Shown here piece after piece: positions 9,041-62,160 of a DNA stretch of 63,823 nucleotides. The position numbers were made by a program, and so were the translations under genes. The stretch is from a virus (Duplodnaviria > Caudoviricetes). The notes under the pieces are model-generated. The model did no database searches. It saw nothing but the letters and a program-made list of their open reading frames with translations, and was not told the DNA's origin. The stretch is from IMG/VR virus record IMGVR_UViG_3300020034_000013, positions 1-63,823 of that record; one strand, written 5' to 3'. Positions within the stretch are counted from its first letter, which is position 1. Every line of letters begins with the position of its first letter.

Positions 9041-9433
9041 ATGCTGCGCGCTATCCTTTGTGTCGTTATCTGCCTAGTTCTCCTCATCTCTGTATCTACT
9101 GAGGCTAAGACCGATCGCTGCACTCCTCCTGCCGGGCTCGTCTCATACCGAGCTACAGTGCAAGAGCCTGTAAGCCTTACGCCTCAGTGCAGAGCATTGC
9201 TTTCTTCGTACGCGAAGAATGTCACATTCCCCTTTGAAGACGGTGTATTCCGCGGGCGTGGCGACACCGCCGTTTCTCCTGATCGATGCCGGTATGCTAT
9301 CGAGAGCAAGAAAGAGGACTTGGTTGTCGCTTTTTCTTTTGATGAATCATGGACTAAGGGCGTAGGTATCATCATCGACGGCAGCGTGGATGGCGGTTGC
9401 AGCTTCCCCTTTACCTTTTATCGCAGTCTCTAA
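9041..9433 (+). CDS. secreted Cys-rich moron protein (family member 1)
   Basis: Signal peptide; own promoter TTGACC-N16-TAGCAT-N6-ATG at 9007-9034; inserted between the two terminase genes. Confidence 0.7.
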   Translation: MLRAILCVVICLVLLISVSTEAKTDRCTPPAGLVSYRATVQEPVSLTPQCRALLSSYAKNVTFPFEDGVFRGRGDTAVSPDRCRYAIESKKEDLVVAFSFDESWTKGVGIIIDGSVDGGCSFPFTFYRSL

Positions 9434-9441
9434 CGTCCCGG

Positions 9442-10794
9442 ATGCAGGTAGACTTCTCCAAATCGCTGGCTCAGAGCCAAGCCTTCCGTGCTCTCAATCC
9501 GGGGATGACTATTTGCCTCGCGTTCGGACGAGGGGTGGGCAAGAGCACCTGCCAGCGGCTCTTTTGGTACATCCTTCTCGCGAAGGCCGATGCAGACCTA
9601 AAGAGCGGGGCGGCTCCTCACAAGATCCGGGTTCGCATCGTGATGTTGATGCCGACCCTCAAACAGGCGAATCGGACGCACGCGGATAACTACTTTGCGG
9701 AGCTCGCGCCTGATGGTGATTGGGGCTTCCTTGGCGCGCGTCTCAACAAGACTACGCTCAAGGCGACCTTCCCTAGTGGAAGTTGGATCCAATGGGTCTC
9801 GGCTGACAACGCCAACGACAACCGAGGCCTTCGCTGCGACTACGTCTCTATAGACGAATGTGACGACATCGATCCAGAGATCTTCTACGGCATCTGCCTC
9901 CCCTGGCTCTCAGAGCCGCACAGCAAAAAGATTACAGTCTTTTCAGGCACCCCCCGGCGCGGACGCTACGGCCTCCTCTGGAAGGCATATCGCGAACTCC
10001 CCGCTAACGATCCAGAAACCTGCCGCTCCTTCCACGCAACAGCCTACGACGTCCCGCTCCTAGTCGATCCGAAGATCGTTCAAAGGGCGAAAGATATCAC
10101 CCCCCCGAGCACCTTCGCCAGAGAGTGGCTTTGCGATTTCGATGCTGCGGAGGGCCTTGTTTATCCCATGTTTTCCGATGAAAACACGAAGTCCGCCTTT
10201 GCGAATGTGCGAGGGCAGAGTCGTCCAATCTACGGCAAGTGGGATGACATTCTGATCGGTGTCGATCACGGTTACGAAGACCCCGCGGTCTTCCTCGTGG
10301 TTGGTGTCGCCGGACGCGGTAAAGATGCCGTTGCTCATGTCATCTGGGAGTACTGCGAGAGCCATAAGACTATCGACGAGTTGGCGGAGGTCGCCTCCGA
10401 GATACATACGCACTATCCCACCGCGAAATGGTATGCGGACTCGAGCAACCCGTCAGCCATTCGCAGCTACGAAAAACGCACTGGTAAGAAGATCAAGCAC
10501 GCCACTCACAAGATCGAGGATGGCGTCGACATCGTAGCTTCCATGCTGTCCCCCCGCCCCGACGAATTCGGCGGTCGCACTCCTCAGCTCTTTGTGGACC
10601 CTGCATGTACGCATCTCATTCACGAGATGGGCATGTACAGGCGTAAGCGAGACCCGAAGAATCTCGAACGCATCCTCGACGACATTGAGGACCGTAACAA
10701 TCATTGCCAGGATAGTTTGCGCTACTCCGTCTATCACTACTTCGGAAACACCCACGGTCCACGTCACGAGCTCCACGATTACGACGACAGCTAA
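9442..10794 (+). CDS. terminase large subunit
   Basis: Walker A GRGVGKS, RGLRCD.VSIDE (Walker B), SGTP, RuvC-like IGVDHG, and NHCQDSLRY. Confidence 0.95.
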   Translation: MQVDFSKSLAQSQAFRALNPGMTICLAFGRGVGKSTCQRLFWYILLAKADADLKSGAAPHKIRVRIVMLMPTLKQANRTHADNYFAELAPDGDWGFLGARLNKTTLKATFPSGSWIQWVSADNANDNRGLRCDYVSIDECDDIDPEIFYGICLPWLSEPHSKKITVFSGTPRRGRYGLLWKAYRELPANDPETCRSFHATAYDVPLLVDPKIVQRAKDITPPSTFAREWLCDFDAAEGLVYPMFSDENTKSAFANVRGQSRPIYGKWDDILIGVDHGYEDPAVFLVVGVAGRGKDAVAHVIWEYCESHKTIDELAEVASEIHTHYPTAKWYADSSNPSAIRSYEKRTGKKIKHATHKIEDGVDIVASMLSPRPDEFGGRTPQLFVDPACTHLIHEMGMYRRKRDPKNLERILDDIEDRNNHCQDSLRYSVYHYFGNTHGPRHELHDYDDS

Positions 10795-42297: not shown

Positions 42298-42304
42298 CAC
42301 ATAG

Positions 42305-42333
42305 CCCCACCGATGACCTCGGTGGGGTTTTTC
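42305..42333. terminator. terminator at the convergence of the two genome arms
   Basis: CCCCACCGA-TGACC-TCGGTGGGG followed by a T-run. Confidence 0.85.
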
Positions 42334-42542
42334 TTATTTGGTGTCTTCGAGACCTGGCCATGCCCGGTAAGGTGTGCCCGGGGTATGGTGAGAGTAGGTT
42401 TCGGTGATTCCCGTCTCTCTCGGGGCGTAAGAGAAGTGTCGTACAGGGGTCCAGGGTAGGCAGGCTTCTAGAAGGCCCATTAGCGCCACGAAGAGAGCCA
42501 GGCTACACACGTGCCACCCACCTCTCAAAAGGCGCGTGCTGG

Positions 42543-42764
42543 TCATCGTGAGAGGAACTTTACGAGTTCCGTGAGAGCAACTGTGAGATCTTCCTGTCGT
42601 CGGAGGCGGAGGTCATGGGGCTCTTGTCTGGATGTCGATACGTTAACCCGGGCGACGGCAACAGCCCGTTCTAGGTCGAGACGCTCCGTCCGAACTTTCT
42701 CCCCATACTCGGCCATCCGTTCGGCATGCGCGCGCTGTTTATCGGTGAGCTCAAGAGTCGTCAT
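42543..42764 (-). CDS. hypothetical protein
   Basis: MTTLELTDKQ..., overlaps the methyltransferase stop. Confidence 0.5.
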   Translation of the reverse strand: MTTLELTDKQRAHAERMAEYGEKVRTERLDLERAVAVARVNVSTSRQEPHDLRLRRQEDLTVALTELVKFLSR

Positions 42765-43953
42765 CAGTGACTTTCGTCCAGTGTTCAATCCTGAGACACG
42801 CAATTCTGTTATACCCCTCATCCTCCGGGTCAAGCTCGATGCCAACGACCTCATCCCACCCTGCCAGAAGAGCGCCGATCATCTCGCTGCCAGATCCCGA
42901 GAAGGGAACGAGAAGCCTGCGCGGCGACCCGTCGGACCGCGGGGGAGGCAGAATCAGCTTCGCCAAATATTCGCATAGGGCGATAGGCTTCACGCAAGGG
43001 TGGTGATTCCGGTGCCCGCCAGTACGCCCGGCGCCTGCAGCCCCATTGCCGATATCCACTGCGCCGTCCTCGCGATCAACGCAATCGCCCGCCGACTTTA
43101 GCACCAGGCTTTCGCACCCAGCATTGCGCTCTTTACTGGACACTTTCGCCGAGAAATAAAATCTCGCAGCGCCCCCGTTGTCCCTGAAGCCCCGCTTCCC
43201 GCCGCCCCCATTGGCCGTTACGGAGGGGTGTGACGGGCGATTGCCGACAATCTCATCCAAGACCTGTCCTGCGCCCTCATCTAGGATCACGTTGCGGGGC
43301 CAATTGCCAACCGGAGCACCGACGCGCTCGATGCGACAACCATCAACCCACATCGCGCCAGTCCCCCACTTGAGGGCGTTGATCGCGTAGATGCCGTCGA
43401 GGGGTTTGCGCGCCACGGTAACGGGCTCCCACGCCGGAGCCAGCGCCATGCCGTGACCTTCCCAGGGAGCCGACAGCTCGGAACCTGCGCCGGTGATGGC
43501 AATCGTCTTGGTCGTGGAGCCCACGCCTATCCCGTAGGTGCCGCCCTTCTCCGCAGTCGAGATGCCTGCGTTACCGGTCAGAACCTTATGCCCGACAACC
43601 AGGCGCTCGTTTCCGAGATGCGCGTCGATCAACTTGCCCATCGTCGTTGCCGGCTTTGGCATGCCCTTGGCGTACATCCAGGCGATATGGTCGCGAATCT
43701 CAAACCCAGCGTCTTCCACGTTGCAGTCTGCGCGGTGGAAAGTACGGGAGCCACCGAATGACATCGCATAGGCACCGGGCTTCAGAACGCGTAGAATACT
43801 CTCCCAGCATCCAACGCTGGGCAGCGTATAGTCCCATTTCTTGCCCATAAATTTGAGCCCATATGGCGGATCGCAGAGGACCGCATCGAAATGATTTTCG
43901 GGGAGCCTGGAACAAACATCTTCCACCTCTCCCTGTATGATCCAATATTTCAT
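42751..43953 (-). CDS. DNA N6-adenine/N4-cytosine methyltransferase (beta class)
   Basis: DPPY, HPCVKP, VPFSGSGS, GIE in beta-class motif order. Confidence 0.93.
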   Translation of the reverse strand: MKYWIIQGEVEDVCSRLPENHFDAVLCDPPYGLKFMGKKWDYTLPSVGCWESILRVLKPGAYAMSFGGSRTFHRADCNVEDAGFEIRDHIAWMYAKGMPKPATTMGKLIDAHLGNERLVVGHKVLTGNAGISTAEKGGTYGIGVGSTTKTIAITGAGSELSAPWEGHGMALAPAWEPVTVARKPLDGIYAINALKWGTGAMWVDGCRIERVGAPVGNWPRNVILDEGAGQVLDEIVGNRPSHPSVTANGGGGKRGFRDNGGAARFYFSAKVSSKERNAGCESLVLKSAGDCVDREDGAVDIGNGAAGAGRTGGHRNHHPCVKPIALCEYLAKLILPPPRSDGSPRRLLVPFSGSGSEMIGALLAGWDEVVGIELDPEDEGYNRIACLRIEHWTKVTDDDS

Positions 43954-44225
43954 TCGTACCCCTTTTCATCATACTGCCGGTCTTCAGCGTCGAGTTTGCA
44001 ACCAAAGCGGAGGTTGTATAGGAGCGAGGTCAATGCGGATGAAGGGATACCGATGGCCGTAGAGACGTGCACATCATCGGACAATCCGTTGGTCCAACGA
44101 ACTTCTACTATTCGAGAGGCTCCGAAGGGGGAGATTTCCAGATGTCGAGGGGGGCCTTCTCTCTGGGAGTCAAATTCTCTACCGGCGGCTAAGATGTCGG
44201 TGATCGTCGACAGAGGGATCATCAT
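43950..44225 (-). CDS. hypothetical protein with AEDRQYDE C-terminal tag
   Basis: 91 aa, coupled at both ends. Confidence 0.65.
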   Translation of the reverse strand: MMIPLSTITDILAAGREFDSQREGPPRHLEISPFGASRIVEVRWTNGLSDDVHVSTAIGIPSSALTSLLYNLRFGCKLDAEDRQYDEKGYE

Positions 44226-44818
44226 TCCCCCTCGTCATACTGTCGATCTTCGGCGCCGCGCTCAGGATTGTAAGGGACAACGATGTCTCCAATAGATCTA
44301 AAGGTATCATAAAATTCTTTCGTTCGGTCGACAGTGCCGGGCACATACACGATCGCGTTGCTGTGGGATGGCGCGTTCTTCGCTTCATCTCCGGGCCAAT
44401 CAAATCGTATGCGCTTGCGGGGGATGCACACCGGGAACGCTGTGGCTGGCAGGCAGTCTCGGCCCTGGCTCACTGATAGGCCTTCGACAGAGAAGAACAT
44501 GAAGATAGCATGTTGTATGTGCCCTAGATCACGTTCTCTCATGAGTTTTTGCCAGAATAGGAGTGTCTTGCTCTTGTTGCCAACCTTGCCGCCAGGGGGA
44601 TTCACATAGAGAGCAGCAGGCATCCCTCCGAGTGACCAGTCTTGTTCAAGTCCGTTGGATGCCTCGTCGAAATACTTCGACGCGCATATGCGTTTGTTCG
44701 CCATATAGGATGATGCAGGGTCCAGGTCGATCTTTCCAAGAACGCGAGTCACCAGGCCGATAATATTCCGAGGCGTCATCCACGAGTCTTGCCTGCTGCT
44801 ATGCTGGATGTTCATCAT
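44222..44818 (-). CDS. phage Dam-like DNA N6-adenine methyltransferase with AEDRQYDE tag
   Basis: W.TP, IDLDPAS, NGL.QDW, YVNPPG (NPPY variant), RIRF. Confidence 0.85.
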   Translation of the reverse strand: MMNIQHSSRQDSWMTPRNIIGLVTRVLGKIDLDPASSYMANKRICASKYFDEASNGLEQDWSLGGMPAALYVNPPGGKVGNKSKTLLFWQKLMRERDLGHIQHAIFMFFSVEGLSVSQGRDCLPATAFPVCIPRKRIRFDWPGDEAKNAPSHSNAIVYVPGTVDRTKEFYDTFRSIGDIVVPYNPERGAEDRQYDEGE

Positions 44819-44970
44819 CCCCCCTCGTCGTACTGTCGATCTTCGGCACCAAGTTCGAATTCGGCCTCCGCAAGGAAATCCTCGAGGGAAGGCTCATCCT
44901 CGAACTCGTCATTTTCCCGAACTATGCCCACCTGAACCGCGTATTCGTAAATCATACCGTCGAGCGTCAT
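44815..44970 (-). CDS. very acidic 51 aa protein with AEDRQYDE tag
   Basis: Promoter TTGACA-N16-TATCTT at 44994-45021 and GGAGG RBS place the start at 44970; 17 D/E versus 2 R. Confidence 0.7.
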   Translation of the reverse strand: MTLDGMIYEYAVQVGIVRENDEFEDEPSLEDFLAEAEFELGAEDRQYDEGG

Positions 44971-45025
44971 GTCATCCTCCGTCTGCAGCCAGTAAGATAG
45001 GTCTCCTACGAACGGTGTCAAGAGG

Positions 45026-46066: not shown

Positions 46067-46522
46067 CTAGGTGGATTGACCGGACTTAGGGAGCCGGCCC
46101 AATTTCCATAGTGCAAGACACACGGCATCAAGGACATCCTCTGTTGCTTTCTCGGGGATTTTGGAGGTGACGGCATCCACAACCTTGCGCTCCACGGAGG
46201 TAAGCTTGGTGTACATCCTGGCATGGTGCACGGGCTTCTTGACCTGCCCCTTCCAAAGTTTCGGCAAAACTAAGGAAGGGGCAGGGCCGCGGCTTTCAAG
46301 GCGCTCTTGGTACCGGCCTACGCGGTGAGCGAGGGTGATGAGATTGTTGGCTTGGGAAGCGGGGGTCTGGGGGTAGACCTCCTGATCTTCGATGACCGCG
46401 GTAAGCTCCTTCTGCCCCCATGCTGAAGGTATGAAATCTTCTCCCCGCCCGCAAGCTAGAATACCAGCGGGTGTGATGTGGCACCATCCTGTCGAGATGC
46501 CTGGGTCGATGGCGATGATCAT
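46067..46522 (-). CDS. RuvC-like Holliday junction resolvase
   Basis: IIAIDPGISTGW, VIE, P..WKG, DVLDAV. Confidence 0.85.
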   Translation of the reverse strand: MIIAIDPGISTGWCHITPAGILACGRGEDFIPSAWGQKELTAVIEDQEVYPQTPASQANNLITLAHRVGRYQERLESRGPAPSLVLPKLWKGQVKKPVHHARMYTKLTSVERKVVDAVTSKIPEKATEDVLDAVCLALWKLGRLPKSGQST

Positions 46523-49231
46523 AACTTCGCCTGATCGGAGGGCAGGTCGTTTCCTGCAGTCCAGTCTTCGAGAAACTTTATTCGAGCCTTCAATGAGGCT
46601 ATGTCCGCGAGATCTAGCGCAAACTCTTTGGCTAGAGCGGCCCATTCATCTCGATCTTTTGTGACAAGTTCGAGCTTCGCTTCCAGTTGTGCGATCTGAT
46701 ACCACAGCATTTCGTCGCTCATGCTTTTCTCCCAAACAGCATCGTCGAGATGTCTCGAGGAGAACCTGCGCGGCGATCCTCTACGGGCCTATATTCCGTG
46801 CATGTCGCCAGCAGCGTAGTTCGATCCCCCACTCTCACGGTGGATCCGTAGCCAATCCGATGCATGTCATCCAGGGCGTCGAGAATGTCCCGTCGCGCGC
46901 GCACAATACGGCCGGCAATATCGTAGACGTAATTCATGAGAAATCCGAGGACAGCAAGATGTCCAAGGTCCCATAAAAAGATTCATCGCCCAGTCTGGCC
47001 ATATTCCAAAGAAGATCCTCGTGGACACAAAGCAAGCTGTAGGAATCACCGGGCTGCACCCCCGCCTCCCCAAAGCCACGAGTATAGGACTTGAAGAGAT
47101 ATTTCCCCAACATCTTGTGATACTTCACGGTGGCATCGAACTCGGAACTGTCGATATATTTACGGATTTTCTTGAGGAGTTTTTTGCTTTTCTTTTCAGA
47201 CAGGAGTTTCATCGTCGTGCCTCTGAACAGTCATAGCATAAACTGCGGTTGTGGTTGAGTGCGTGATTACTGGGTGTTTTACAATGAGCGCAAACACCGG
47301 AGAGGTCCGGTGTCATCGATAGGGAAGGGGAGATCTCAGGAACAGTTACTGTGATACCAGGAGTCCCCTCGGGTGTTGCGAAGATTTCCACGACATCGAA
47401 GCCATTCATCGAGCCGGGGCGAGGTACGTCCTTCCACATTCTGCCACATAGATTACACGTAGTGATACCCTTATCGCGTGTTTTCATAGAATAGTGACAA
47501 GAACAGTAACTTCCGAGATATACGGTGGTCATCAGAGCACCTTCCTATTGATCAAGATTGTGGTTTTCTCCCTAACAGAGAGACAAGAGCGACGCCAGTA
47601 ACAATGCCAAACAGATACGTAAAAAGCACAGCGAGGGTCACGGTTTCTCCGGAGGTCGGACGAACTGGATTTCTACGGTGTAAGTATGTCCGGGGCTCAG
47701 TTTAAAATCATAAGCTTCCCACCGGGCCATGTCCACCCCCACGAACGCTATGCCTTCTGGCAGGGCCTCAAGTTCGTCGATGGCAGCCTGTAGGGCACAT
47801 CTAGGGTACTTACTTCCGATATTCTCTGCGCCGCAGCAGGGACATTTATCAGCAGCATACCCCGAGAATTTGACAACTCTCAACAGTTTCAGCAGCTCAT
47901 TCCTCTTCATCGTCATCCCTCTGCTTGGAGGGCATCCACACGGAGCAGAATTCTGCATCTTCTGGTAGTCGAACGTACCCACATCCTCGACAGAAACGCC
48001 AGCCTTCTCCCGCATCGAAGAACTCTTCATGGAAGATGATAGACTCGGTGATTTCCTTTTCTGTGCAGAGTTGCCAAGGGATCCTAAGTTCAGGGACAGA
48101 TGCGGCCCAGATGTGCACAAGATCTCCCTTTTCATAGTACAGCAGCCCAGCGCAAATCGCATCCTCGACCTCGAGCTGACGTCGTTGGCTTTCGGTGAGG
48201 CTCATCAATTATCCCAGCCCTGAGCGAAAGCGTAGTGGACGGACCAGGGCAGACCCTCGCGGAAGTCCACCTTTGCGGCCCGTGACCAAAAGCGACGTAC
48301 ATACCTCCGCCACTGCGATCGACTTCCTCCGTTTACACCTTTACATGTGCGTTTTTCGTTCTTATTTTGTTGACGTCGGTTCATACTTGCTCCGCGGGCA
48401 CAAAGTACTCTGGCGGTAGGTAGAAGTATGTCTCATCGATGCGTAGGATGGCTTCCGAACGAGAGTGGAGATTGGGGACGATCTCACTCCACGGCGCCAC
48501 CTCGAGAGAGGCGACCTGCCCGGTGCGGGGGCCGTGGGTGATGCGGACCGAAGAGCCTACAGGGAGAACATTCATCTCTTTCATGTTGCCCTCCATTCCC
48601 AGATGTGTGTATCCACGACAATCTCCATAGTGTGAATCTGCGATCCCCCTCTGTACAATATGGCAAGAGCTTGATCGAGGACTCGGGGGTCCGTGCAGAC
48701 AGCCCTCACTGAAAGCCCCGCTGTTGTATCCCAAAGGATGTGGGCACAATGGTTCTTGCAATTCATGTTGGCATGCATCTTCATGTTGCATTGTCCCATT
48801 CTGAAGGTTTGCTCGGAGGCTTGGGGGACGGTCGCGTTTTCATATCTCAGAACCTAACTCGGCCTCGTATCCTGTCAAGACCCCGCCAAGACATGCAGCA
48901 GGATCAAAAGCAGTGCGATCGCCACCAAGACAGCCCCGCTATCTTTAGCTTCGAGATTATCGAGGAATTCTTCGATGCGGGGATCTATCTTCTTCATGAA
49001 GAGAACCTAACCGAGCTTCCAGGTGTGTCAAGTACCAATCGTACCCTCCCCTAGAGCGTCTCGAAAACGTCTAGCCCAACGCACGAGTTCGATCCTAGCG
49101 CTCGGAGGGTACATATCCGTGAAGGGGTGCTGCCCAAAGCCCGAACCTCGGCTGAGTTCAGATGTCTCGACGTCGGTGCAGAAACTCTCCACAAGAGTTC
49201 TAAGAAGCAATAGGTCTTCTTGGTTGTTCAT
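46519..49231 (-). CDS. cluster of ~11 small coupled hypothetical ORFs, several Cys/Zn-finger-like (e.g. 46519-46722, 46719-46937, 46934-47212, 47209-47532, 47638-47910, 47897-48208, 48381-48584, 48875-48997, 49028-49231)
   Basis: Tiling ORFs with ATGA overlaps; promoters TTGACA-N16-TAGGTT at 48851-48878 and 49004-49031. Confidence 0.55.
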
Positions 49232-50142
49232 GTTTGCACAGCCGGATAGAAACGGGATGAGAATTCGGAGGCTCGCCCCCTGCGGTCTACCGTGAACGAT
49301 ATGATGCTTGCACCGACATCCCACGGTCGAGAAATCCGGTTCCCAAACGAGCCTTTCTTGACCTGGAAGCAGCCTCCGCTCGCGCAAAAAATGTCCTCCG
49401 CCTGCGCGTAGCAACTAGCCACGTGATGAAGATGTCCCGCCAGTATGAGATCCGTAGGATCTTGTAAATTCTCCGCGTGAGAGTTGAGCATGCGACGGAT
49501 TGCATTGGGTGTACTGGCCGCACCCATGGGGTGCCAAAGGTGCGTACGGGCTCCTTCGATCACAGCATTGCCACGGCACGTTCCCGCATGATGCCAATCT
49601 AGGCCGGCCTTGCGCATGCGGTCTTCAACGATCTTCCCGATGTCCAGGCCTATCGCATCCGATGAATAGTAGTCATGGTTCCCGGTGATGGCGGCGACTT
49701 TCCACGGGTTGCCTTTCATCGTGTCGACGAGTTCATCGATCTGCTCATCTGCTCCATGTAGTCGCTGTTCAGGCAGAAGGATGCTTTTGACGCCATCGGT
49801 ACCATCTCCGGTGAAAGCGATCGACCGGCACCCTTCCTTCCATGCAAAGGAAAGAAACTTCTTGAGGGCCTTGGGCGCGAATTGTCGGCTCCCCGCGTGC
49901 GTGTCCGTGACGTGTGCGATCTTGTGACGGCCGGGACTCGGTTTTCCGATGACAACGAGAGCGCCTACGCCGACTTCGAGCTTGGTGAAGACGTGCTGCC
50001 CTGTGACGTGGAGGTTGTAGCCTTCCTTCTTGCCGTTAGCGATGGTGGATCGAAGCTCTTTTTCGGAGCACTGGAGTTTGGCCGTGAGCCACGAGATCTC
50101 CCGGGGTTTCTTCGAGGTGTGATGAATGAGGTCATGCAACAT
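49228..50142 (-). CDS. calcineurin-like metallophosphoesterase with N-terminal HTH
   Basis: DTH, GDGTDG, GNHD, HP, GHLH motifs. Confidence 0.88.
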   Translation of the reverse strand: MLHDLIHHTSKKPREISWLTAKLQCSEKELRSTIANGKKEGYNLHVTGQHVFTKLEVGVGALVVIGKPSPGRHKIAHVTDTHAGSRQFAPKALKKFLSFAWKEGCRSIAFTGDGTDGVKSILLPEQRLHGADEQIDELVDTMKGNPWKVAAITGNHDYYSSDAIGLDIGKIVEDRMRKAGLDWHHAGTCRGNAVIEGARTHLWHPMGAASTPNAIRRMLNSHAENLQDPTDLILAGHLHHVASCYAQAEDIFCASGGCFQVKKGSFGNRISRPWDVGASIISFTVDRRGRASEFSSRFYPAVQT

Positions 50143-50686
50143 TGGACAACTCCATTACGATCTGCAGGGCTCTTTGATACGTGTGGACGCGCGTGTAGCA
50201 TGAAAATACCGCATCATCGGCATTCCACGGGCGGTCGAACAAGATGGCTCGACCCCGGGGATGGGCCGCGGCCCATGCTTTCACAGTGTGCAAGTTATCT
50301 TCGATGAGGATGTCTCCTCCGACAAGATGTTTCAGATGCGAAGGGCAATGGATCACGAAAGGAGACCACGGCTCAATCCACTCCTGTCGTTCGCTCGTCC
50401 AATACAGGGACGGCGTGGGGGCCGTGAGCGCGATGAAATCCGTCTCCTTCGCGAGCTCCCCTAAGAATTCATGAGCGCCCGAGTAAAGAGGAATCTGCTC
50501 GCAGAAACCCCGCTGCATCGAGAGCTCACGGAGGATATTCAGGCTCTCTGGATCGAGCACTTTTGAGAGATCCCAATCCGTGAACTCTTCGGGCGAGTAT
50601 AGGATGCCTCGCGTCTGCAGGAGGTTGCAAATATGTCCCACGTAGTCGGCGACGACCCCGTCTATATCGAGGAGCACGGTAATCAT
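50132..50686 (-). CDS. 5'(3')-deoxyribonucleotidase (HAD, NT5C-like)
   Basis: LLDIDGVVAD, LTAP, K..V.GDILIEDN, FDRPWN. Confidence 0.9.
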   Translation of the reverse strand: MITVLLDIDGVVADYVGHICNLLQTRGILYSPEEFTDWDLSKVLDPESLNILRELSMQRGFCEQIPLYSGAHEFLGELAKETDFIALTAPTPSLYWTSERQEWIEPWSPFVIHCPSHLKHLVGGDILIEDNLHTVKAWAAAHPRGRAILFDRPWNADDAVFSCYTRVHTYQRALQIVMELSNVA

Positions 50687-51063
50687 ACTGCCCCCGAAAC
50701 TTCCGCTGGCGCGATCGTGAGGATATTTAGATTGTTCGAGATAAAGTGCAAAATCCAGGGAGTAACGAGCCGGATAAGATCTTCCTCCCACTTGTCTTCG
50801 TATGGCTTCTTTATCCAACCTTCGATGTTAGGACCTACCCCCGATGCCTCCAAAAGATAATGGATGATCTCATGCAGGAGAGTGTCACGTTGGCGGTCAG
50901 CGGAGATATTGTCCCGCACCAAGATGCGGCCTTGTTCGATCTTCGCGATACCCTCCGGCACATTGCTGCCTGGTGAGGAGTCCGCTTCTTTCATTTCTTC
51001 CTCAGTGACAAGAAAGACGGAGATATTCTGTCCACAGATATCGAGATCTCGGAGATATCTCAT
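50683..51063 (-). CDS. HExxH zincin-like protein
   Basis: DTLLHEIIH...EE. Confidence 0.7.
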   Translation of the reverse strand: MRYLRDLDICGQNISVFLVTEEEMKEADSSPGSNVPEGIAKIEQGRILVRDNISADRQRDTLLHEIIHYLLEASGVGPNIEGWIKKPYEDKWEEDLIRLVTPWILHFISNNLNILTIAPAEVSGAV

Positions 51064-51521
51064 GTATCCTCTTCATCACGGCGAGCTTCTTCACGAGCGA
51101 CCGCATCCTCGAGGACATTAGCCAGGGTGCTGAGAACATGTCGCGCGTTGACATACGAAGCTGCCGCAAGTACTCCGAGGAGGCCCGTGAGAATGAAGTC
51201 ATCCCGGCCATGTGTCGCAACCCCGTGACCTAAGCAGAACATGCTGGCAAGGAGCGCCAACCAGAAGATCACACAGAGACGATCTCGGTGTTTGAGCGCC
51301 TCGTCATAGTCCCGAAGAACTTGCTCATCAGTTGGATGCATCAGAATCTCCTTTGGTCGACCTAGGGGCGGCATCCTTTGCATAGTACCGATCTCCCCGC
51401 CTAACGATAAGCCCTTCACGGATGGCTCGAGCCAGCGCGTTGTCGAAGGTCTCGTCGTTTTCGTTGTAGTCTACGTCGCCCATGTTGGACAATAGGTTGG
51501 TAACTGTAATCTTCATGATGT

Positions 51522-52034
51522 CTAAGATGCCTCGACCTTGATAGTGGATTGCACAATACCTACAGAACCTCGGGTTCCGTCCAGACCTTCAGTCTGGGCC
51601 AGGATAAATAGGACACAGCACGCCGCATGTGCGAGATGAGGGAGTCCGGATTCCTGATCGTTACGCTCACCCCCCCGCCATGCCTCGTAGTGGCGCAATA
51701 ACGCGTCTTCATACCGTTCCGTAGAGACACCCTGCCAATTATTGCTACCGTACTTCTGGGCCCCGAAGGTGAGCACCTTGGCCGCGAGTCTGAGAGCCTT
51801 CCACGGGAGGAGCGACATGCGGTCCTTGCCCTGATCGTCCTTGCGAGGGGCGGCGGGTAGGACGGGACCCTCGGCATGAGCCTCTTCTGGCCAGCGAGGT
51901 GGTGGGGGGATAGCATCGCGAGGAGGCTCCACCCAATTGGGGGCAGGGCCTACCCTATGATTTCGACATGCCGTATCCCCGGGGAGCGTGGGGCTGGAAC
52001 AGCCCCATTTGCTACATAGGCCTAGATCGCTCAC
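51522..52034 (-). CDS. dATP/dGTP diphosphohydrolase-domain protein (DUF5664-type)
   Basis: K.D.GK.R.SLLP, VLTFGA.KY..NNW, ALLRH, D.ESGLPHLAHAAC. Confidence 0.88.
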   Translation of the reverse strand: MSDLGLCSKWGCSSPTLPGDTACRNHRVGPAPNWVEPPRDAIPPPPRWPEEAHAEGPVLPAAPRKDDQGKDRMSLLPWKALRLAAKVLTFGAQKYGSNNWQGVSTERYEDALLRHYEAWRGGERNDQESGLPHLAHAACCVLFILAQTEGLDGTRGSVGIVQSTIKVEAS

Positions 52035-52540: not shown

Positions 52541-52888
52541 TCATGACCCCTCCCATGTGGCGATCGCCTCGTCCAGGACCGCTAGGATTTCTGCATGAGT
52601 TCGATTCTCTTCATCATTGAAACTAGGAAGAGCGCCCCCGTAGTTTTCGTCTCCGTGGTAGTCGAGCGCCGGCGCGAATCGGCGATCCGTCGTGTCCGGG
52701 TACTGCTCCTCCAGGTAAAGCCCAAGCTGCTGGAACTCCAGAATAGTGCAAGCCCACCCTAATGCGCATGCGCGGGTGCCGCATTTCCCATCAGAAAAGC
52801 CCGCGTCAGCCCACCGTCTCATGTCGAACCGATCTTCCGGCACCGTGTCCAGGAAGTCCGCGAGGATGAGAAGTCGTTCTTTGTTCAC
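52541..52888 (-). CDS. hypothetical protein sharing its C-terminus with 57965-58357
   Basis: CGT.ACALGW; ends FND...TH.E.LAVLDEAI. Confidence 0.65.
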   Translation of the reverse strand: MNKERLLILADFLDTVPEDRFDMRRWADAGFSDGKCGTRACALGWACTILEFQQLGLYLEEQYPDTTDRRFAPALDYHGDENYGGALPSFNDEENRTHAEILAVLDEAIATWEGS

Positions 52889-52904: not shown

Positions 52905-53732
52905 TTACGATTCGAGTGTCAAGAGTCTCTCCTGGAATTCTTCAAAGGTCTCGATACTCCGGCCCGTCCTTGCGCACCACTCGGCAAGAGACTTGTTGCT
53001 TTTCGAGCTGTTGCAGGACTTACATGCAGGCGCGATATTGGAGCCGATGTCACCCGGGCACATAGGATCTGTAATCGCTACGACATGGTCCCGGGTTAGC
53101 CTCACGCCCGGCTGAGGTTCTATGCAGTAGGCGCAGAGATATCCATACGCCTCGCAGATAGCCGCGAAGTCGTATTTCTCCTTGTGCAGACCTGCAAGAA
53201 GGGCTCTTCGCGCGTGCGCATAATCTTTGCAGCGTGTCTTGTTGGCTCTTCGCCAGGCCGACTGCCGGGCTGCGATCTGCTCAGAGTTCTCCTTGCGGTA
53301 GGCCGCGATCTTTTCGGAGTTCTCCTTGCGGTAGACCGCATTCTGAGTTGCGATCTTCTCAGCGTTCTCCTTGCGGTAGGCCGCGATCTTTTCGGAGTTC
53401 TCCTTGCGGTAGACCGCATTCTGAGTTGCGATCTTCTCAGCGTTCTCCTTGCGGTAGGCCGACTGCCGGGCTGCGGTCTGCTCGGCGTTCTTCTTGTAAT
53501 AGGCCGACTGCCGGGCTGCGATCTTCTCAGCGTTCTCCTTGTAATAGGCCGCGATCTTTTCGGAGTTCTCCTTGCGGTAGACCGCATTCTGAGTTGCGAT
53601 CTTCTCAGCGTTCTCCTTGCGGTAGGCCGCGATCTTTTCGGAGTTCTCCTTGTAGTAGACCGCTTTGTAACACTTCCGACATAGACCTTTTGCGCAGTGC
53701 TTTGCGTCTACGCACCCGCACGTCAAGTCCAC
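52905..53732 (-). CDS. HNH endonuclease with tandem YRKEN(S/A)EKIAA repeats
   Basis: CAYC, DHVV, N.APACKSCNSSK; N-terminal AKGLCRKCY. Confidence 0.9.
   Translation of the reverse strand: MDLTCGCVDAKHCAKGLCRKCYKAVYYKENSEKIAAYRKENAEKIATQNAVYRKENSEKIAAYYKENAEKIAARQSAYYKKNAEQTAARQSAYRKENAEKIATQNAVYRKENSEKIAAYRKENAEKIATQNAVYRKENSEKIAAYRKENSEQIAARQSAWRRANKTRCKDYAHARRALLAGLHKEKYDFAAICEAYGYLCAYCIEPQPGVRLTRDHVVAITDPMCPGDIGSNIAPACKSCNSSKSNKSLAEWCARTGRSIETFEEFQERLLTLES
53259..53660 (-). repeat. coding tandem repeats of 33 and 45 bp units
   Basis: Ten near-identical units; a 78 bp composite recurs. Confidence 0.9.
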
Positions 53733-57964: not shown

Positions 57965-58357
57965 TCATTTGCCACCCACACCCTCGATCGCCTCGTCTAG
58001 AACCGCCAGGACCTGCTCATGAGTCGTCTCTGGATCGTCGTTGAACGCTTGAGACGGGCTAAACAGGGTAAAGCCGAGCGACAGCGCACGTGCCACAACG
58101 CCCTCGACTTCACTGATCGCGCCCTCGCATCCAGGAGCAGTCGTCCCACCTGCAGCGCGGGTGATCGCTCCCTGTAGGCAGTAGCATGACGCCATTGGGT
58201 GGCATGCGTCCACGGGCAACCCCAAGGGACTCCTCGCGTGGGCACCCTTTGTCCAGCGGCACTCGTCTGACAGGAGACTCCTGGCGGCCCGAAGGACTTC
58301 TTCGACACTTTTACCACACAGATGGCTGTACGGACTGTAATGATTATTTTCGCTCAT
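57965..58357 (-). CDS. DUF6197-like protein
   Basis: VLRAAR.LL...WTKG, CYCLQGAI, FND...TTHEQVLAVLDEAI. Confidence 0.7.
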   Translation of the reverse strand: MSENNHYSPYSHLCGKSVEEVLRAARSLLSDECRWTKGAHARSPLGLPVDACHPMASCYCLQGAITRAAGGTTAPGCEGAISEVEGVVARALSLGFTLFSPSQAFNDDPETTHEQVLAVLDEAIEGVGGK

Positions 58358-58483: not shown

Positions 58484-58792
58484 CTAGGCCCAAGGTATCC
58501 CAGCATGCCTTTCGGCCGTCACGCAAGCCCTCGAATCTCCACGGTCATCCTCCTCCATGTCCGAAATCGCACACTCTACAATTTCGCGGATACTGACCGG
58601 ATTGCTCTTGAGACGTTTGTAGTCGATCTCGCCAGAGGGAAGAATATCGAAGGACCCATGGTCTTTTGGCCAATATCGCGGAAAGTTTTTGACGTAGATG
58701 CGGGTGAAACCGACCTTGTTACGCGCTTTAGCCCGTTTTCCCGAGACCTTGAGTACTGCCACGATCTTGTCCGTCATCTCTTCCGTGGTCAT
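58484..58792 (-). CDS. early protein, paralog of 61594-61851
   Basis: TT.EM..KIV.VL...G..AK...K.G..RIYVK; promoter TTGACT-N16-TATCTT at 58835-58862. Confidence 0.7.
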   Translation of the reverse strand: MTTEEMTDKIVAVLKVSGKRAKARNKVGFTRIYVKNFPRYWPKDHGSFDILPSGEIDYKRLKSNPVSIREIVECAISDMEEDDRGDSRACVTAERHAGIPWA

Positions 58793-59580
58793 CTTCCCAT
58801 CCTCCTGTGGGCACCCACTGCCCTCACCCCATTGAAGATACACACGGAGATATCCGAGTCAAGACCCGTGGCGACGATTCCCTCACCACATCCGGCACAG
58901 GGTGAATCCAACGCAAAACCTAAGCATCAACGCATCAACGCATCCTCGATGTAGTCCCGCATCTTCTTCCTGCTCATCCGCGATGCGTACTATGGTCTAT
59001 ATTTCTCACGCCAACCTCTGCCATCCCAGGCCTGGTCCCCATAATGAGTCTAATCTCACATAGATTTCATCGCCGGCGTCGTCCCGGAGTACCGCATATC
59101 TCGCATAATCGCCCATCCGGCGCTGGCGAGATGGGCTCAGTGTATCCACGACCTCCCATTCCATGTCGGGATGGGTCTGCGGGTGCCGCCAAACCTGTCC
59201 GAGATTCATCCGCCGGCTCAATCCAGGCACATCCCCCACTCCGCTCATCGGCCTGCCTCATTGCACTCGTAGCAGAGACCCCGATGATGTCCCTTGGCGT
59301 GACTGCTCTCCACGTGGCAGGAGACGCAGCGGACGGCCATGTCAGCAGGGGCAACCTCGTATTCCTCCGCCACCGGCTTCTCAAAATATTCCTTCAGCAG
59401 CTTTCTGAAAATATTCTTTACATTCTTTTTTCGTAGACGCGTTCCTCAACGGGCCAGAATATCCAATCGGCTTTCCCTGGGAGTTGAAGACGATAGTGTC
59501 CCCCGGAACGAACCCGATATCCACCAGTCGAATAAAATACTCGAGCCGCTTCTCCTTGAGTTTGCATTTCAGATCCTGGC

Positions 59581-61593: not shown

Positions 61594-61851
61594 TCATTCC
61601 CCTGCCTCAACAGAGAGAGCATCTTCAACCAAGTCACGAGTCCCCGCCATCTGCCTCGTGAGACCCTTGTAGTTGCGTTCCCCGCTCAGCAAAATCTCGA
61701 TGAAGCCGTGGTCCTTGGCGCCGTAGCCAAGTGCGCTCTTGACGTAGATGCGGACCAGGCCGCCCTTGTCCCACACCTTAGCGGCGCGGCCTTTGCTCTC
61801 GAGCACCTCAACAATCTTCTCCGCCATCTCGTCCGTGGTTATCGCGCTCAT
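61594..61851 (-). CDS. early protein, paralog of 58484-58792
   Basis: AKVWDKGGLVRIYV; promoter TTGACA-N16-TATCTT at 61894-61921. Confidence 0.75.
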   Translation of the reverse strand: MSAITTDEMAEKIVEVLESKGRAAKVWDKGGLVRIYVKSALGYGAKDHGFIEILLSGERNYKGLTRQMAGTRDLVEDALSVEAGE

Positions 61852-61931
61852 CGTCTCATCCTCCCGGGGACATCCACTGCCCTCACCCCACTGAAGATAA
61901 TTCTCTCTCGGGGTCTGTCAACGGGTACACC

Positions 61932-62056: not shown

Positions 62057-62071
62057 AGTACCCGAGACCGG

Positions 62072-62160
62072 GGCATCGACGTGGATTCGAACCACACGAG
62101 CCGGGCTATCGGCTCTCCTCCTCAGGGTTCCCTGAGATGCACCCCATGTGCTTTCGATGC
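62072..62160 (-). ncRNA. tRNA-like RNA (long variable arm) lacking a canonical anticodon loop
   Basis: Perfect 7 bp acceptor GCATCGA/TCGATGC, D-stem GCAC/GTGC, variable arm GAGCCG/CGGCTC, T-arm GTGG-TTCGAAT-CCAC. Confidence 0.7.

What the first reader, a model, noticed from the sequence alone, without database searches (positions are those of the whole stretch)
43950..44970. Three unrelated consecutive genes end in the same AEDRQYDE peptide, conserved at the protein level
Seen: the 51 aa acidic ORF, the Dam-like methyltransferase and the 91 aa ORF end in GAEDRQYDEGG, GAEDRQYDEGE and DAEDRQYDEKGYE. Each ~38 bp copy also supplies the RBS and ATGA overlap for the next gene. Across the 8 core codons every difference is synonymous: GCC/GCT, GAT/GAC, CGA/CGG, GAC/GAT, GAG/GAA between copies 1 and 2, and TAT/TAC between copies 2 and 3. 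Inference: this is both a portable gene-junction module allowing cassette gain and loss by recombination, and a selected C-terminal tag (partner docking, targeting or stability). Speculative: A-x-D-x-x-Y followed by acidic residues resembles the adaptor-binding half of the ssrA tag (ANDENY) with a non-degradable end.
Basis: partly seen in the sequence, partly recalled or inferred. Interest (0 to 1): 0.85.

Follow-up and report, generated by a model that had tools for sequence, protein, structure and literature searches.

The report
Shared C-terminal tag on three phage genes
Three neighbouring, unrelated genes of an uncultured soil phage end in the same eight-residue acidic peptide, which selection has kept unchanged while the DNA beneath it drifted; it is probably a common address or docking label, but its partner is unknown.

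Summary
AEDRQYDE is encoded exactly three times in this complete 63.8-kb soil phage. Each copy lies 2-4 residues before the stop of one of three consecutive minus-strand genes: a 51-aa acidic ORF, a Dam-like methyltransferase-fold protein and a 91-aa ORFan. Each junction also carries the Shine-Dalgarno run and a 4-nt stop/start overlap for the next gene.

The peptide is selected. The third copy differs from the others at 5-6 of 8 third codon positions and at no other position (P about 3e-5). The residues flanking the core do change. The tail is an add-on: 0 of 119 Dam-family homologues carry it.

The "portable junction" idea is only half supported. Two copies share 38 of 41 nt, so a recent duplication is plausible. 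The third shares at most 8 contiguous nt. No relative, deletion form or circle was found. The ssrA analogy fails two defining features.

No related phage or second tag-bearing locus exists in the collections searched, so the partner is unknown; my one complex prediction gave no answer. This scan has noted similar shared terminal tags on other phage and mobile-element DNA. Best reading: a lineage-specific C-terminal docking tag on a methylation module. Interest is moderate.

The parts
44994..45021 (-). sigma-70-like promoter candidate (TTGACA, 16 nt, TATCTT) just upstream of the 51-aa ORF; possible start of the tagged-gene transcription unit
   Evidence: 10 of 12 consensus positions; consensus match only; sequence, with GGAGGA 4 nt before the ATG at 44970
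44815..44970 (-). 51-aa strongly acidic ORF ending in ...ELGAEDRQYDEGG; no family, no homologue found
   Evidence: (0 Pfam/PHROG families); best codon-usage frame of six
44824..44847 (-). tag copy A: the 8 codons for AEDRQYDE in the 51-aa ORF
44812..44852 (-). junction repeat A (about 41 nt): last 11 codons, G-rich Shine-Dalgarno run, tandem TGA stops, ATGATG start of the next gene; 38 of 41 nt identical to repeat B
44222..44818 (-). Dam-like (PF05869) methyltransferase-fold protein, 198 aa, with a 14-residue extension PERGAEDRQYDEGE beyond the family's usual end
44231..44254 (-). tag copy B: the 8 codons for AEDRQYDE in the Dam-like gene
44219..44259 (-). junction repeat B, same build as repeat A
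43950..44225 (-). 91-aa ORFan ending in ...KLDAEDRQYDEKGYE
   Evidence: only itself among 2 candidates; no credible homologue among 1.84 billion representatives; best codon-usage frame of six
43965..43988 (-). tag copy C: same peptide, 5 of 8 third codon positions differ from copy B and 6 of 8 from copy A
42751..43953 (-). untagged 400-aa N6/N4 DNA methyltransferase, translationally coupled (ATGA overlap) to the 91-aa ORF
42543..42764 (-). 73-aa ORF if read from the internal ATG; untagged, downstream in the same unit
   Evidence: read from the 103-aa ORF listing; codon-usage frame; start site inferred
42334..42546 (-). 70-aa ORF with a hydrophobic N-terminal segment; untagged, last ORF before the terminator
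   Evidence: weak coding score
42303..42329 (.). 11-bp G+C-rich hairpin followed by a T run, lying between the convergent structural and early arms; likely end of the unit
   Evidence: scored on the + strand; use on the minus strand is inferred

Best explanation
AEDRQYDE is a lineage-specific short linear peptide tag. It sits on a flexible tail, 2-4 residues before the C-terminus of three unrelated proteins. These proteins open a small methylation or anti-restriction-type transcription unit: promoter candidate, 51-aa acidic protein, Dam-like protein, 91-aa ORFan, untagged 400-aa N6/N4 methyltransferase, two small ORFs, terminator.

The tag most likely acts as a common docking or recognition handle that brings the three proteins to one partner, either a phage or a host protein. 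The partner has not been identified.

The tag spread at the DNA level together with the gene junction that encodes it. That junction holds the last ~11 codons, the Shine-Dalgarno run and the overlapping stop/start. A gene inserted at such a junction therefore gains both the label and coupled translation of its downstream neighbour.

Shown: the three copies, their position, the coupling signals, purifying selection on the 8 residues, the add-on nature of the tail in the Dam-like protein, and the near-identity of two junctions. Inferred: that the peptide binds something, and that duplication happened by recombination at the junction.
For: Three exact copies against 0 expected, and no others in the genome.

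Selection on the core: 0 non-synonymous and 5 (B vs C) or 6 (A vs C) synonymous differences. All lie at third positions. There are about 4.3 synonymous and 19.7 non-synonymous sites. P that 5 random substitutions are all silent is about 3e-5, and P that all 5 fall on third positions is 0.0013.

The residues beside the core do differ: G/G/D before it, and GG / GE / KGYE after it.

The tail is an addition. None of 119 Dam-family homologues holds any 4-mer of the tag. Their median length after the last conserved Gly is 6 residues, against 21 here.

In the AlphaFold2 model (mean pLDDT 90.9), confidence falls to 77 and then 62 in the last two 10-residue blocks.

The junction RNA shows no structure signal (z = 0.23, -0.01, -0.13), and the + strand reading of the repeats is not conserved in copy C. 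The constraint is therefore on the minus-strand peptide.

Both small ORFs look coding. Junction repeats A and B are 92% identical over 39 nt.
Against: There are only three copies in one genome, and no relative is available to repeat the selection test. The pattern scans found single, mostly out-of-context matches in 1 IMG/VR locus, 43 metagenome loci and 27 genome loci, and never two in one locus.

Two of the three carriers are ORFans whose expression is unproven. No partner is known.

The distance from motif to stop differs between copies (2 vs 4 residues). That is acceptable for an internal motif, but it means no free-carboxylate recognition.

Copies A and B are young duplicates, so they count as little more than one observation. 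The selection argument rests on the A/B lineage against C.
Confidence: 0.55

Rival explanations
1. Passenger peptide of a translational-coupling junction. Selection keeps the junction (Shine-Dalgarno run plus a correctly placed stop/start overlap) so that inserted genes and their downstream neighbours are expressed. On this reading the shared peptide is only what the retained 3' codons happen to encode.
For: All three copies sit exactly at 4-nt stop/start overlaps with a G-rich Shine-Dalgarno run inside the last codons. Copies A and B are a recent DNA duplicate (38 of 41 nt). The Dam-like gene floats between genomic contexts: of 80 homologous loci, 3 have the large methyltransferase nearby, 5 the RuvC-like gene, and 0 any of the small ORFs.
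Against: The coupling signals occupy only the last 3-5 codons, while the six codons upstream of them (AEDRQY) need not be kept for coupling. Yet the core shows 5-6 silent and 0 replacement changes, whereas residues next to it and the Shine-Dalgarno-bearing codons themselves differ (EGG, EGE, EKGYE).
Confidence: 0.2
2. The primary function is a DNA-level recombination module: a portable gene-junction repeat that lets cassettes be gained, lost or shuffled, as PeSL cassettes do in T4-type phages.
For: Repeats A and B (about 41 nt, 3 mismatches) flank the Dam-like gene as direct repeats 593 nt apart. This is the product expected of a single crossover or a copy-choice insertion. From my own knowledge, phage recombinases can use homologies of this size. 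PeSL-mediated shuffling and mini-circles are documented (PMC2839356, abstract read).
Against: Copy C shares at most 8 contiguous nt with copy B (alignment of the sequences), so the three are not one DNA element. Contigs of three runs show no joint between repeats, though contigs cannot show rare forms. The repeat occurs nowhere else in this genome or in the public collections scanned. There is no promoter-plus-stem-loop build at the junctions. No single-strand annealing protein was recognised among the 39 window ORFs that I scanned.
Confidence: 0.1
3. Adaptor-binding mimic of the tmRNA (ssrA) tag with a non-degradable acidic end. On this reading the tails bind an SspB-like adaptor, either as decoys or for regulated delivery.
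For: GAEDRQY aligns without gaps to AANDENY with A, D and Y in register, and the acidic end resembles the engineered stable DD variants. Both comparisons are recalled knowledge and were not tested by any search.
Against: The tag is encoded in the genes and is not added by tmRNA. It has no LAA-type end. Two recalled SspB determinants differ (first Ala to Gly, Asn to Glu). The host and its tmRNA tag are unknown: the best match to a deposited phage record is 38.8% TerL identity to an uncultured phage. The phage encodes no tmRNA.
Confidence: 0.05
4. Nascent-peptide effect. On this reading the conserved residues act inside the ribosome exit tunnel to pause termination and so promote re-initiation on the next gene.
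For: There is peptide-level conservation right before a stop/start overlap at all three junctions.
Against: The motif lies 2 residues from the stop in copies A and B but 4 in copy C. From my own knowledge, arrest peptides normally need fixed spacing to the peptidyl-transferase centre. Nothing was tested directly.
Confidence: 0.05

Closest known systems
C-terminal docking tails shared by unrelated replication and packaging proteins: T4 gp43/gp33/gp55 tails on the gp45 clamp, the SSB C-terminal tip, and the acidic aromatic tails of T7 gp2.5 and gp4 (all recalled, no call)
   Same: A short, flexible C-terminal peptide placed on proteins of different folds gives them access to one partner. The composition here, acidic with one aromatic residue, is like the SSB and T7 tails.
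   Different: Here the motif is internal to the tail (2-4 residues follow it). The carriers are a methyltransferase-fold protein and two ORFans, no partner is known, and the three genes are adjacent and share the DNA junction.
Large-terminase C-terminal tail that binds the portal (PMC5389665 and PMC5290284, passages read)
   Same: This phage's TerL ends in ...HELHDYDDS. Its closest relatives (nine of those at 49-64% identity, P0123-P0126, P0128-P0130, P0133, P0140) end in acidic, Tyr-rich tails such as EDxxYED..., resembling EDRQYDE.
   Different: The resemblance is weak. The window's TerL tail ranks 13th of 830 ORF tails against the tag. The P22 tail cited in PMC5290284 is basic. I ran no binding test with the portal.
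PeSL regulatory cassettes of T4-type phages (Arbiol et al. 2010, PMC2839356, abstract read)
   Same: Short repeated elements at gene boundaries in accessory regions flank ORFan genes and can mediate insertion, deletion and mini-circle formation.
   Different: PeSLs are intergenic promoter plus stem-loop units. The repeat here lies inside coding sequence, encodes a conserved peptide plus a ribosome-binding site, shows no stem-loop signal, and its third copy is conserved only as protein.
ssrA (tmRNA) tag and its SspB-binding half (recalled, no call)
   Same: There is an A-x-D-x-x-Y pattern near a C-terminus.
   Different: The tag here is gene-encoded, has an acidic rather than LAA end, and the host adaptor is unknown.
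Shared terminal tags noted earlier by this scan on other phage and mobile-element DNA (e1-1098814, e1-120483, e1-5873883, e1-6111187; AI notes, not checked here)
   Same: Runs of neighbouring, unrelated accessory genes end in one short peptide held at the protein level. One case is also acidic-aromatic-acidic.
   Different: The peptide sequences and gene sets differ. Those cases had many relatives, whereas this one is a three-gene singleton with a duplicated coupling junction.

Membership tests
Pfam PF05869 (phage Dam, N6-adenine methyltransferase), for the 198-aa carrier | Score above the family's gathering threshold | tested here: met
   32.8 bits against a cut-off of 28.1, E 6.9e-8, covering residues 7-77 only. 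phrog_111 DNA methyltransferase matches at E 1.4e-16.
Pfam PF05869 (phage Dam, N6-adenine methyltransferase), for the 198-aa carrier | Catalytic (D/N)-P-P-(Y/F/W) motif with an aromatic fourth residue (motif recalled) | tested here: not met
   N72-P73-P74 are invariant, but they are followed by G-G in 33 of 35 aligned family members, including the window protein. Methyltransferase activity is therefore not assured.
Pfam PF05869 (phage Dam, N6-adenine methyltransferase), for the 198-aa carrier | Class I methyltransferase-like fold | tested here: inconclusive
   The model is confident (pLDDT 90.9). Foldseek's best hits are adenine methyltransferases, but they are weak (E 8e-4 to 1e-2, TM 0.4-0.5).
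C-terminal short linear docking motif | Peptide conserved under purifying selection while the flanks and silent sites vary | tested here: met
   0 replacement and 5-6 silent differences in 8 codons, P about 3e-5. The flanking residues differ.
C-terminal short linear docking motif | Lies outside the folded domain, on otherwise unrelated proteins | tested here: met
   The extension is absent from 119 of 119 homologues, and pLDDT drops in the tail. The three carriers share no family. The two ORFans could not be modelled: the Atlas model of the 91-aa protein has pLDDT 0.45.
C-terminal short linear docking motif | A defined binding partner | not testable with these tools
   The host is unknown. The one complex prediction allowed gave no verdict (see Tried and rejected).
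ssrA/SspB-type degradation tag | Added co-translationally from tmRNA and ends in a hydrophobic LAA-type ClpX determinant (recalled) | tested here: not met
   The tag is encoded in the three ORFs and ends in DEGG, DEGE or DEKGYE. There is no tmRNA gene in the phage.
PeSL-type mobile regulatory cassette | Intergenic sigma-70 promoter plus terminator stem-loop | tested here: not met
   The repeats lie within coding sequence. The folds of the three junctions are no more stable than shuffles (z = 0.23, -0.01, -0.13). The only good promoter match (10 of 12) lies upstream of the first gene and not at the junctions; one weak match (9 of 12, minus strand, 44246-44218) overlaps junction B.
Programmed -1 frameshift site | X XXY YYZ heptamer in the 0 frame at each junction | tested here: not met
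   G GGG GGA is present only at the 51-aa/Dam junction. The other two junctions read G GGG GAA and A AAG GGG.

The most novel reading that the evidence does not exclude
The tag is the address label of a self-contained phage protection module. It plugs a methyltransferase-fold enzyme, a small acidic (possibly DNA-mimic) protein and an ORFan into one hub. One candidate hub is the packaging vertex, reached by imitating the acidic Tyr-containing tail of this phage lineage's large terminase. The genome would then be modified or escorted as it is packaged or delivered. New genes would join the system simply by landing in the junction that encodes the label.
Probability: 0.07. Interest if true: 0.85.

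Novelty: new variant of a known kind. Interest (0 to 1): 0.5.

Why it matters
If the tag is a docking label, it shows how a phage can enrol newly acquired accessory genes into an existing protein network in a single recombination step. The same 40-nt junction supplies the expression signals and the address. It would also give a handle for assigning function to ORFans: whatever binds the tag defines the pathway.

Together with similar tags this scan has noted on other phages, it suggests that short terminal address peptides are an under-described organising principle of phage accessory modules. My searches found no description of this in print. Searches returned nothing relevant, and one search found no paper holding the motif; supplementary files could not be searched.

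Tried and rejected
**Complex prediction.** The job held the 400-aa methyltransferase, the 73-aa ORF and the 51-aa tagged protein as partner. It gave no answer (score 0.00, controls not run). This is not evidence either way.

**Sequencing runs.** No RNA holder is listed. Three DNA runs were laid, as contigs only. There were no joints, and a second soil study holds near-identical pieces of the same phage (15 of 16 pieces at 99% or more). Contigs cannot show rare deletions or circles.

**Exact-peptide DNA scans.**
- IMG/VR gave 1 hit, which lies antisense to a real gene.
- Metagenomes gave 43 loci and GTDB genomes 27 loci, each with a single match.
- Those within 6 codons of a stop mostly have 3-19 open codons upstream, or belong to one repeated gut element. 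Others are internal to long frames, for example a YD-repeat protein.
- I did not inspect each of them beyond this table.

**Close relatives.**
- Single-protein scans of IMG/VR with the Dam-like, 91-aa and TerL proteins found none.
- A profile scan returned 80 Dam-family loci.
- A search of the window plus these 80 loci for neighbouring ORFs sharing a 7-mer in their tails recovered the window's tags, plus five loci that I reject. L078 is alternative frames of a pentapeptide-repeat gene. L130 is a 182-nt tandem duplication. L087, L117 and L137 are Arg/Pro-rich frames, judged by eye.
- Three more distant TerL relatives, fetched whole or in part (G001, G002, G004), showed only low-complexity matches.

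**91-aa ORFan.** HMMER against 1.84 billion representatives found itself plus four large repeat proteins. One of these has a repeated DAED..VQYDxDG unit whose Pfam matches all have 0 passing stretches. I reject these as homologues. The ESM Atlas gave nothing usable for either small ORF, and PDB sequence search gave nothing at E below 1.

**TerL-tail mimicry.** The window's TerL tail ranks only 13th of 830, so I keep this as a lead only.

**Other checks.** Rfam gave 0 families. ARAGORN found one tRNA-like call with an undetermined anticodon far from the locus. The host could not be inferred.
Full report
**What the window is.** The window is a complete IMG/VR virus record of 63,823 bp (CheckV completeness 99%). 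It was assembled from soil metagenomes, and near-identical pieces turn up in a second soil study. It encodes a large terminase, a portal, a tail sheath and a primase-helicase. It also encodes a family A DNA polymerase, an HNH protein and a nucleotide-metabolism cluster. Structural genes run rightward to about 42 kb. An early/replication arm runs leftward from about 56 kb to 42.3 kb. No relative among deposited phage records is close: the best TerL match is 38.8% identity, to an uncultured phage. The host is unknown.

**The observation.** The degenerate pattern for AEDRQYDE matches exactly three times, all on the minus strand, while none of 100 shuffles gave a match. A six-frame search finds DRQY, RQYD and QYDE nowhere else. 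The copies lie at the ends of three consecutive ORFs:
- a 51-aa acidic ORF (44815-44970, ending ...ELGAEDRQYDEGG);
- a 198-aa Dam-like protein (44222-44818, ending ...ERGAEDRQYDEGE);
- a 91-aa ORF (43950-44225, ending ...KLDAEDRQYDEKGYE).

Each ORF overlaps the next by 4 nt (ATGA), and the overlap is preceded by a G-rich Shine-Dalgarno run lying in the last codons. In the first two junctions the repeat also contains a second in-frame TGA and a second ATG. That second ATG is the start used by the Dam family consensus MNIQHSS. The fourth gene, a 400-aa N6/N4 methyltransferase (42751-43953), is coupled in the same way but has no tag. Both small ORFs score best in their annotated frame out of six with the phage's own codon usage: 0.41 and 0.14 bits per codon, with the other same-strand frames negative.

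**Is the peptide selected?** Copies A (51-aa ORF) and B (Dam-like) are young DNA duplicates: 92% identity over 39 nt and 38 of 41 nt by eye. Copy C is only 64% identical to B, and their longest shared run is 8 nt. Within the 8 core codons, C differs from B at 5 positions and from A at 6. Every difference is at a third position and is silent, and there are none at the roughly 19.7 non-synonymous sites. Silent sites are effectively saturated. The chance that 5 random substitutions are all silent is about 3e-5. The residue before the core (G, G, D) and those after it (GG, GE, KGYE) do differ. The junction RNAs fold no better than shuffles, and the opposite-strand reading is not conserved in copy C. 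The constraint is therefore on the encoded peptide, in at least two long-separated lineages of the tag.

**Is the tail an add-on?** The Dam-like protein has 119 homologues at E of 2e-11 or better. None contains any 4-mer of the tag. Their median length beyond the last conserved glycine is 6 residues, against 21 here, and many end at ...VPYN, the point where the window protein's extension PERGAEDRQYDEGE begins. The AlphaFold2 model is confident (mean pLDDT 90.9) apart from its first ~10 residues (pLDDT below 50) and the tail, where the last two 10-residue blocks fall to 77 and 62. Foldseek places the core weakly among adenine methyltransferases. The family carries N-P-P-G-G in place of an aromatic-ended catalytic motif, so its activity is uncertain. 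The 91-aa and 51-aa proteins have no credible homologues or structural look-alikes. The add-on test therefore cannot be repeated for them.

**Context.** A sigma-70-like promoter match (10 of 12) and a good ribosome-binding site lie just upstream of the 51-aa ORF. A strong hairpin with a T run lies at 42303-42329, where the two genome arms converge. The tagged genes therefore appear to open a six-ORF unit dominated by methyltransferase-type proteins. This unit is an assemblage peculiar to this phage. Among 80 IMG/VR loci with a Dam-family gene, none has a homologue of the 51-, 91-, 87-, 62-, 94-, 103-, 73- or 70-aa ORFs. Only 3 have the large methyltransferase within 6 kb, and 5 have the RuvC-like gene.

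**Is it a portable junction?** Repeats A and B flank the Dam-like gene as direct repeats 593 nt apart. That is what insertion by a single crossover or template switch at the junction would leave. It is the only positive evidence. Copy C is not a usable DNA repeat. Contigs from three runs show no joint, though contigs cannot reveal rare variants. No other locus in IMG/VR, the JGI metagenomes or the GTDB genomes carries two copies, and the single matches are out of context. No close relative of the phage exists in IMG/VR. More distant TerL relatives (47-50% identity, with G+C of 47-71%) and the 80 Dam loci show no comparable shared tails once low-complexity frames, a pentapeptide-repeat artefact and a tandem duplication are set aside. 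The module idea is therefore plausible for one step (A to B or B to A) and untested beyond that.

**What might the tag bind?** I could not settle this.
- One lead is the large terminase. It ends in ...HELHDYDDS, and nine of its closest relatives (at 49-64% identity) end in acidic, Tyr-rich tails, one of which fits ED-x-x-Y-[DE]-[DE]. Terminase C-terminal tails are reported to bind the portal (PMC5389665 and PMC5290284, passages read). But the window's terminase tail ranks only 13th of 830 ORF tails against the tag, so this remains a lead.
- The ssrA analogy rests on three in-register residues and fails the family's defining features.

**Comparison and novelty.** In its working, the closest known things are C-terminal docking tails shared by unrelated proteins (clamp-binding tails, the SSB tip, the T7 acidic tails; all recalled). 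For the DNA side, the closest are the PeSL boundary cassettes of T4-type phages (PMC2839356, abstract read). It is not a PeSL, not an ssrA tag and not a frameshift site (see the membership table). The full-text searches returned no description of shared terminal tags on neighbouring phage accessory genes, and the motif itself appears in no paper searched. This scan's own earlier notes describe similar tags on other phage and mobile-element DNA. I did not check those notes; they show that the kind recurs.

**Verdict.** The peptide-level tag is supported. The recombination module is partly supported. The partner and function are unknown. Interest is moderate: this is a clean but tiny and so far unique example.

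Noticed in passing
window 49228-52034 (-): Nucleotide-pool cluster: a dATP/dGTP diphosphohydrolase N-terminal domain protein (PF18909, E 3.9e-31), a deoxy-5'-nucleotidase (NT5C, E 2.2e-19) and a metallophosphatase lie side by side. This may point to altered DNA base composition or modification. No PurZ-like gene was looked for.
   Followed up: no
window 52541-52888 (-) and 57965-58357 (-): Two ORFs of 115 and 130 aa align only over their last 21 residues (62% identity...FND....TH..[IV]LAVLDEAI). The DNA there is 80% identical over 40 nt (family D5). This is a second shared C-terminal segment in the same phage.
   Followed up: partly
window 58784-58840 and 61843-61899: A 57-nt direct repeat (84% identity, family D6) spans the start codon and upstream region of a minus-strand ORF at the second site. 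It may be a repeated promoter or leader.
   Followed up: no
window 44815-44826 (-): The 51-aa/Dam junction reads G GGG GGA in the 0 frame. A -1 slip there would enter the Dam frame and fuse the two proteins. The other two junctions lack such a heptamer.
   Followed up: partly
window 44222-44818 (-) and alignment A1: The Dam-like family has invariant N-P-P followed by G-G-K in place of the aromatic residue usual in adenine methyltransferase motif IV. It may not be an ordinary Dam.
   Followed up: partly
window 9397-10794 (+) and proteins P0123-P0140: The large terminases closest to this phage's, at 49-64% identity (e.g. P0123-P0126, P0128-P0130, P0133, P0140), end in acidic, Tyr-rich tails; most of the more distant ones do not.
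   Followed up: partly
window 53177-53666 (-): Tandem repeats of about 78 nt lie inside the 275-aa HNH protein, whose N-terminal part weakly matches a histone-H1-like Lys/Ala-rich family (family D1).
   Followed up: no
window 62070-62160 (-): ARAGORN calls a 91-nt tRNA-like gene with an undetermined anticodon. Rfam finds nothing there at gathering score.
   Followed up: no
window 46276-46285: Contigs of all three runs differ from the record by a small cluster of substitutions and 1-nt indels inside the RuvC-like gene. This is a possible assembly error or a strain difference in the record.
   Followed up: no
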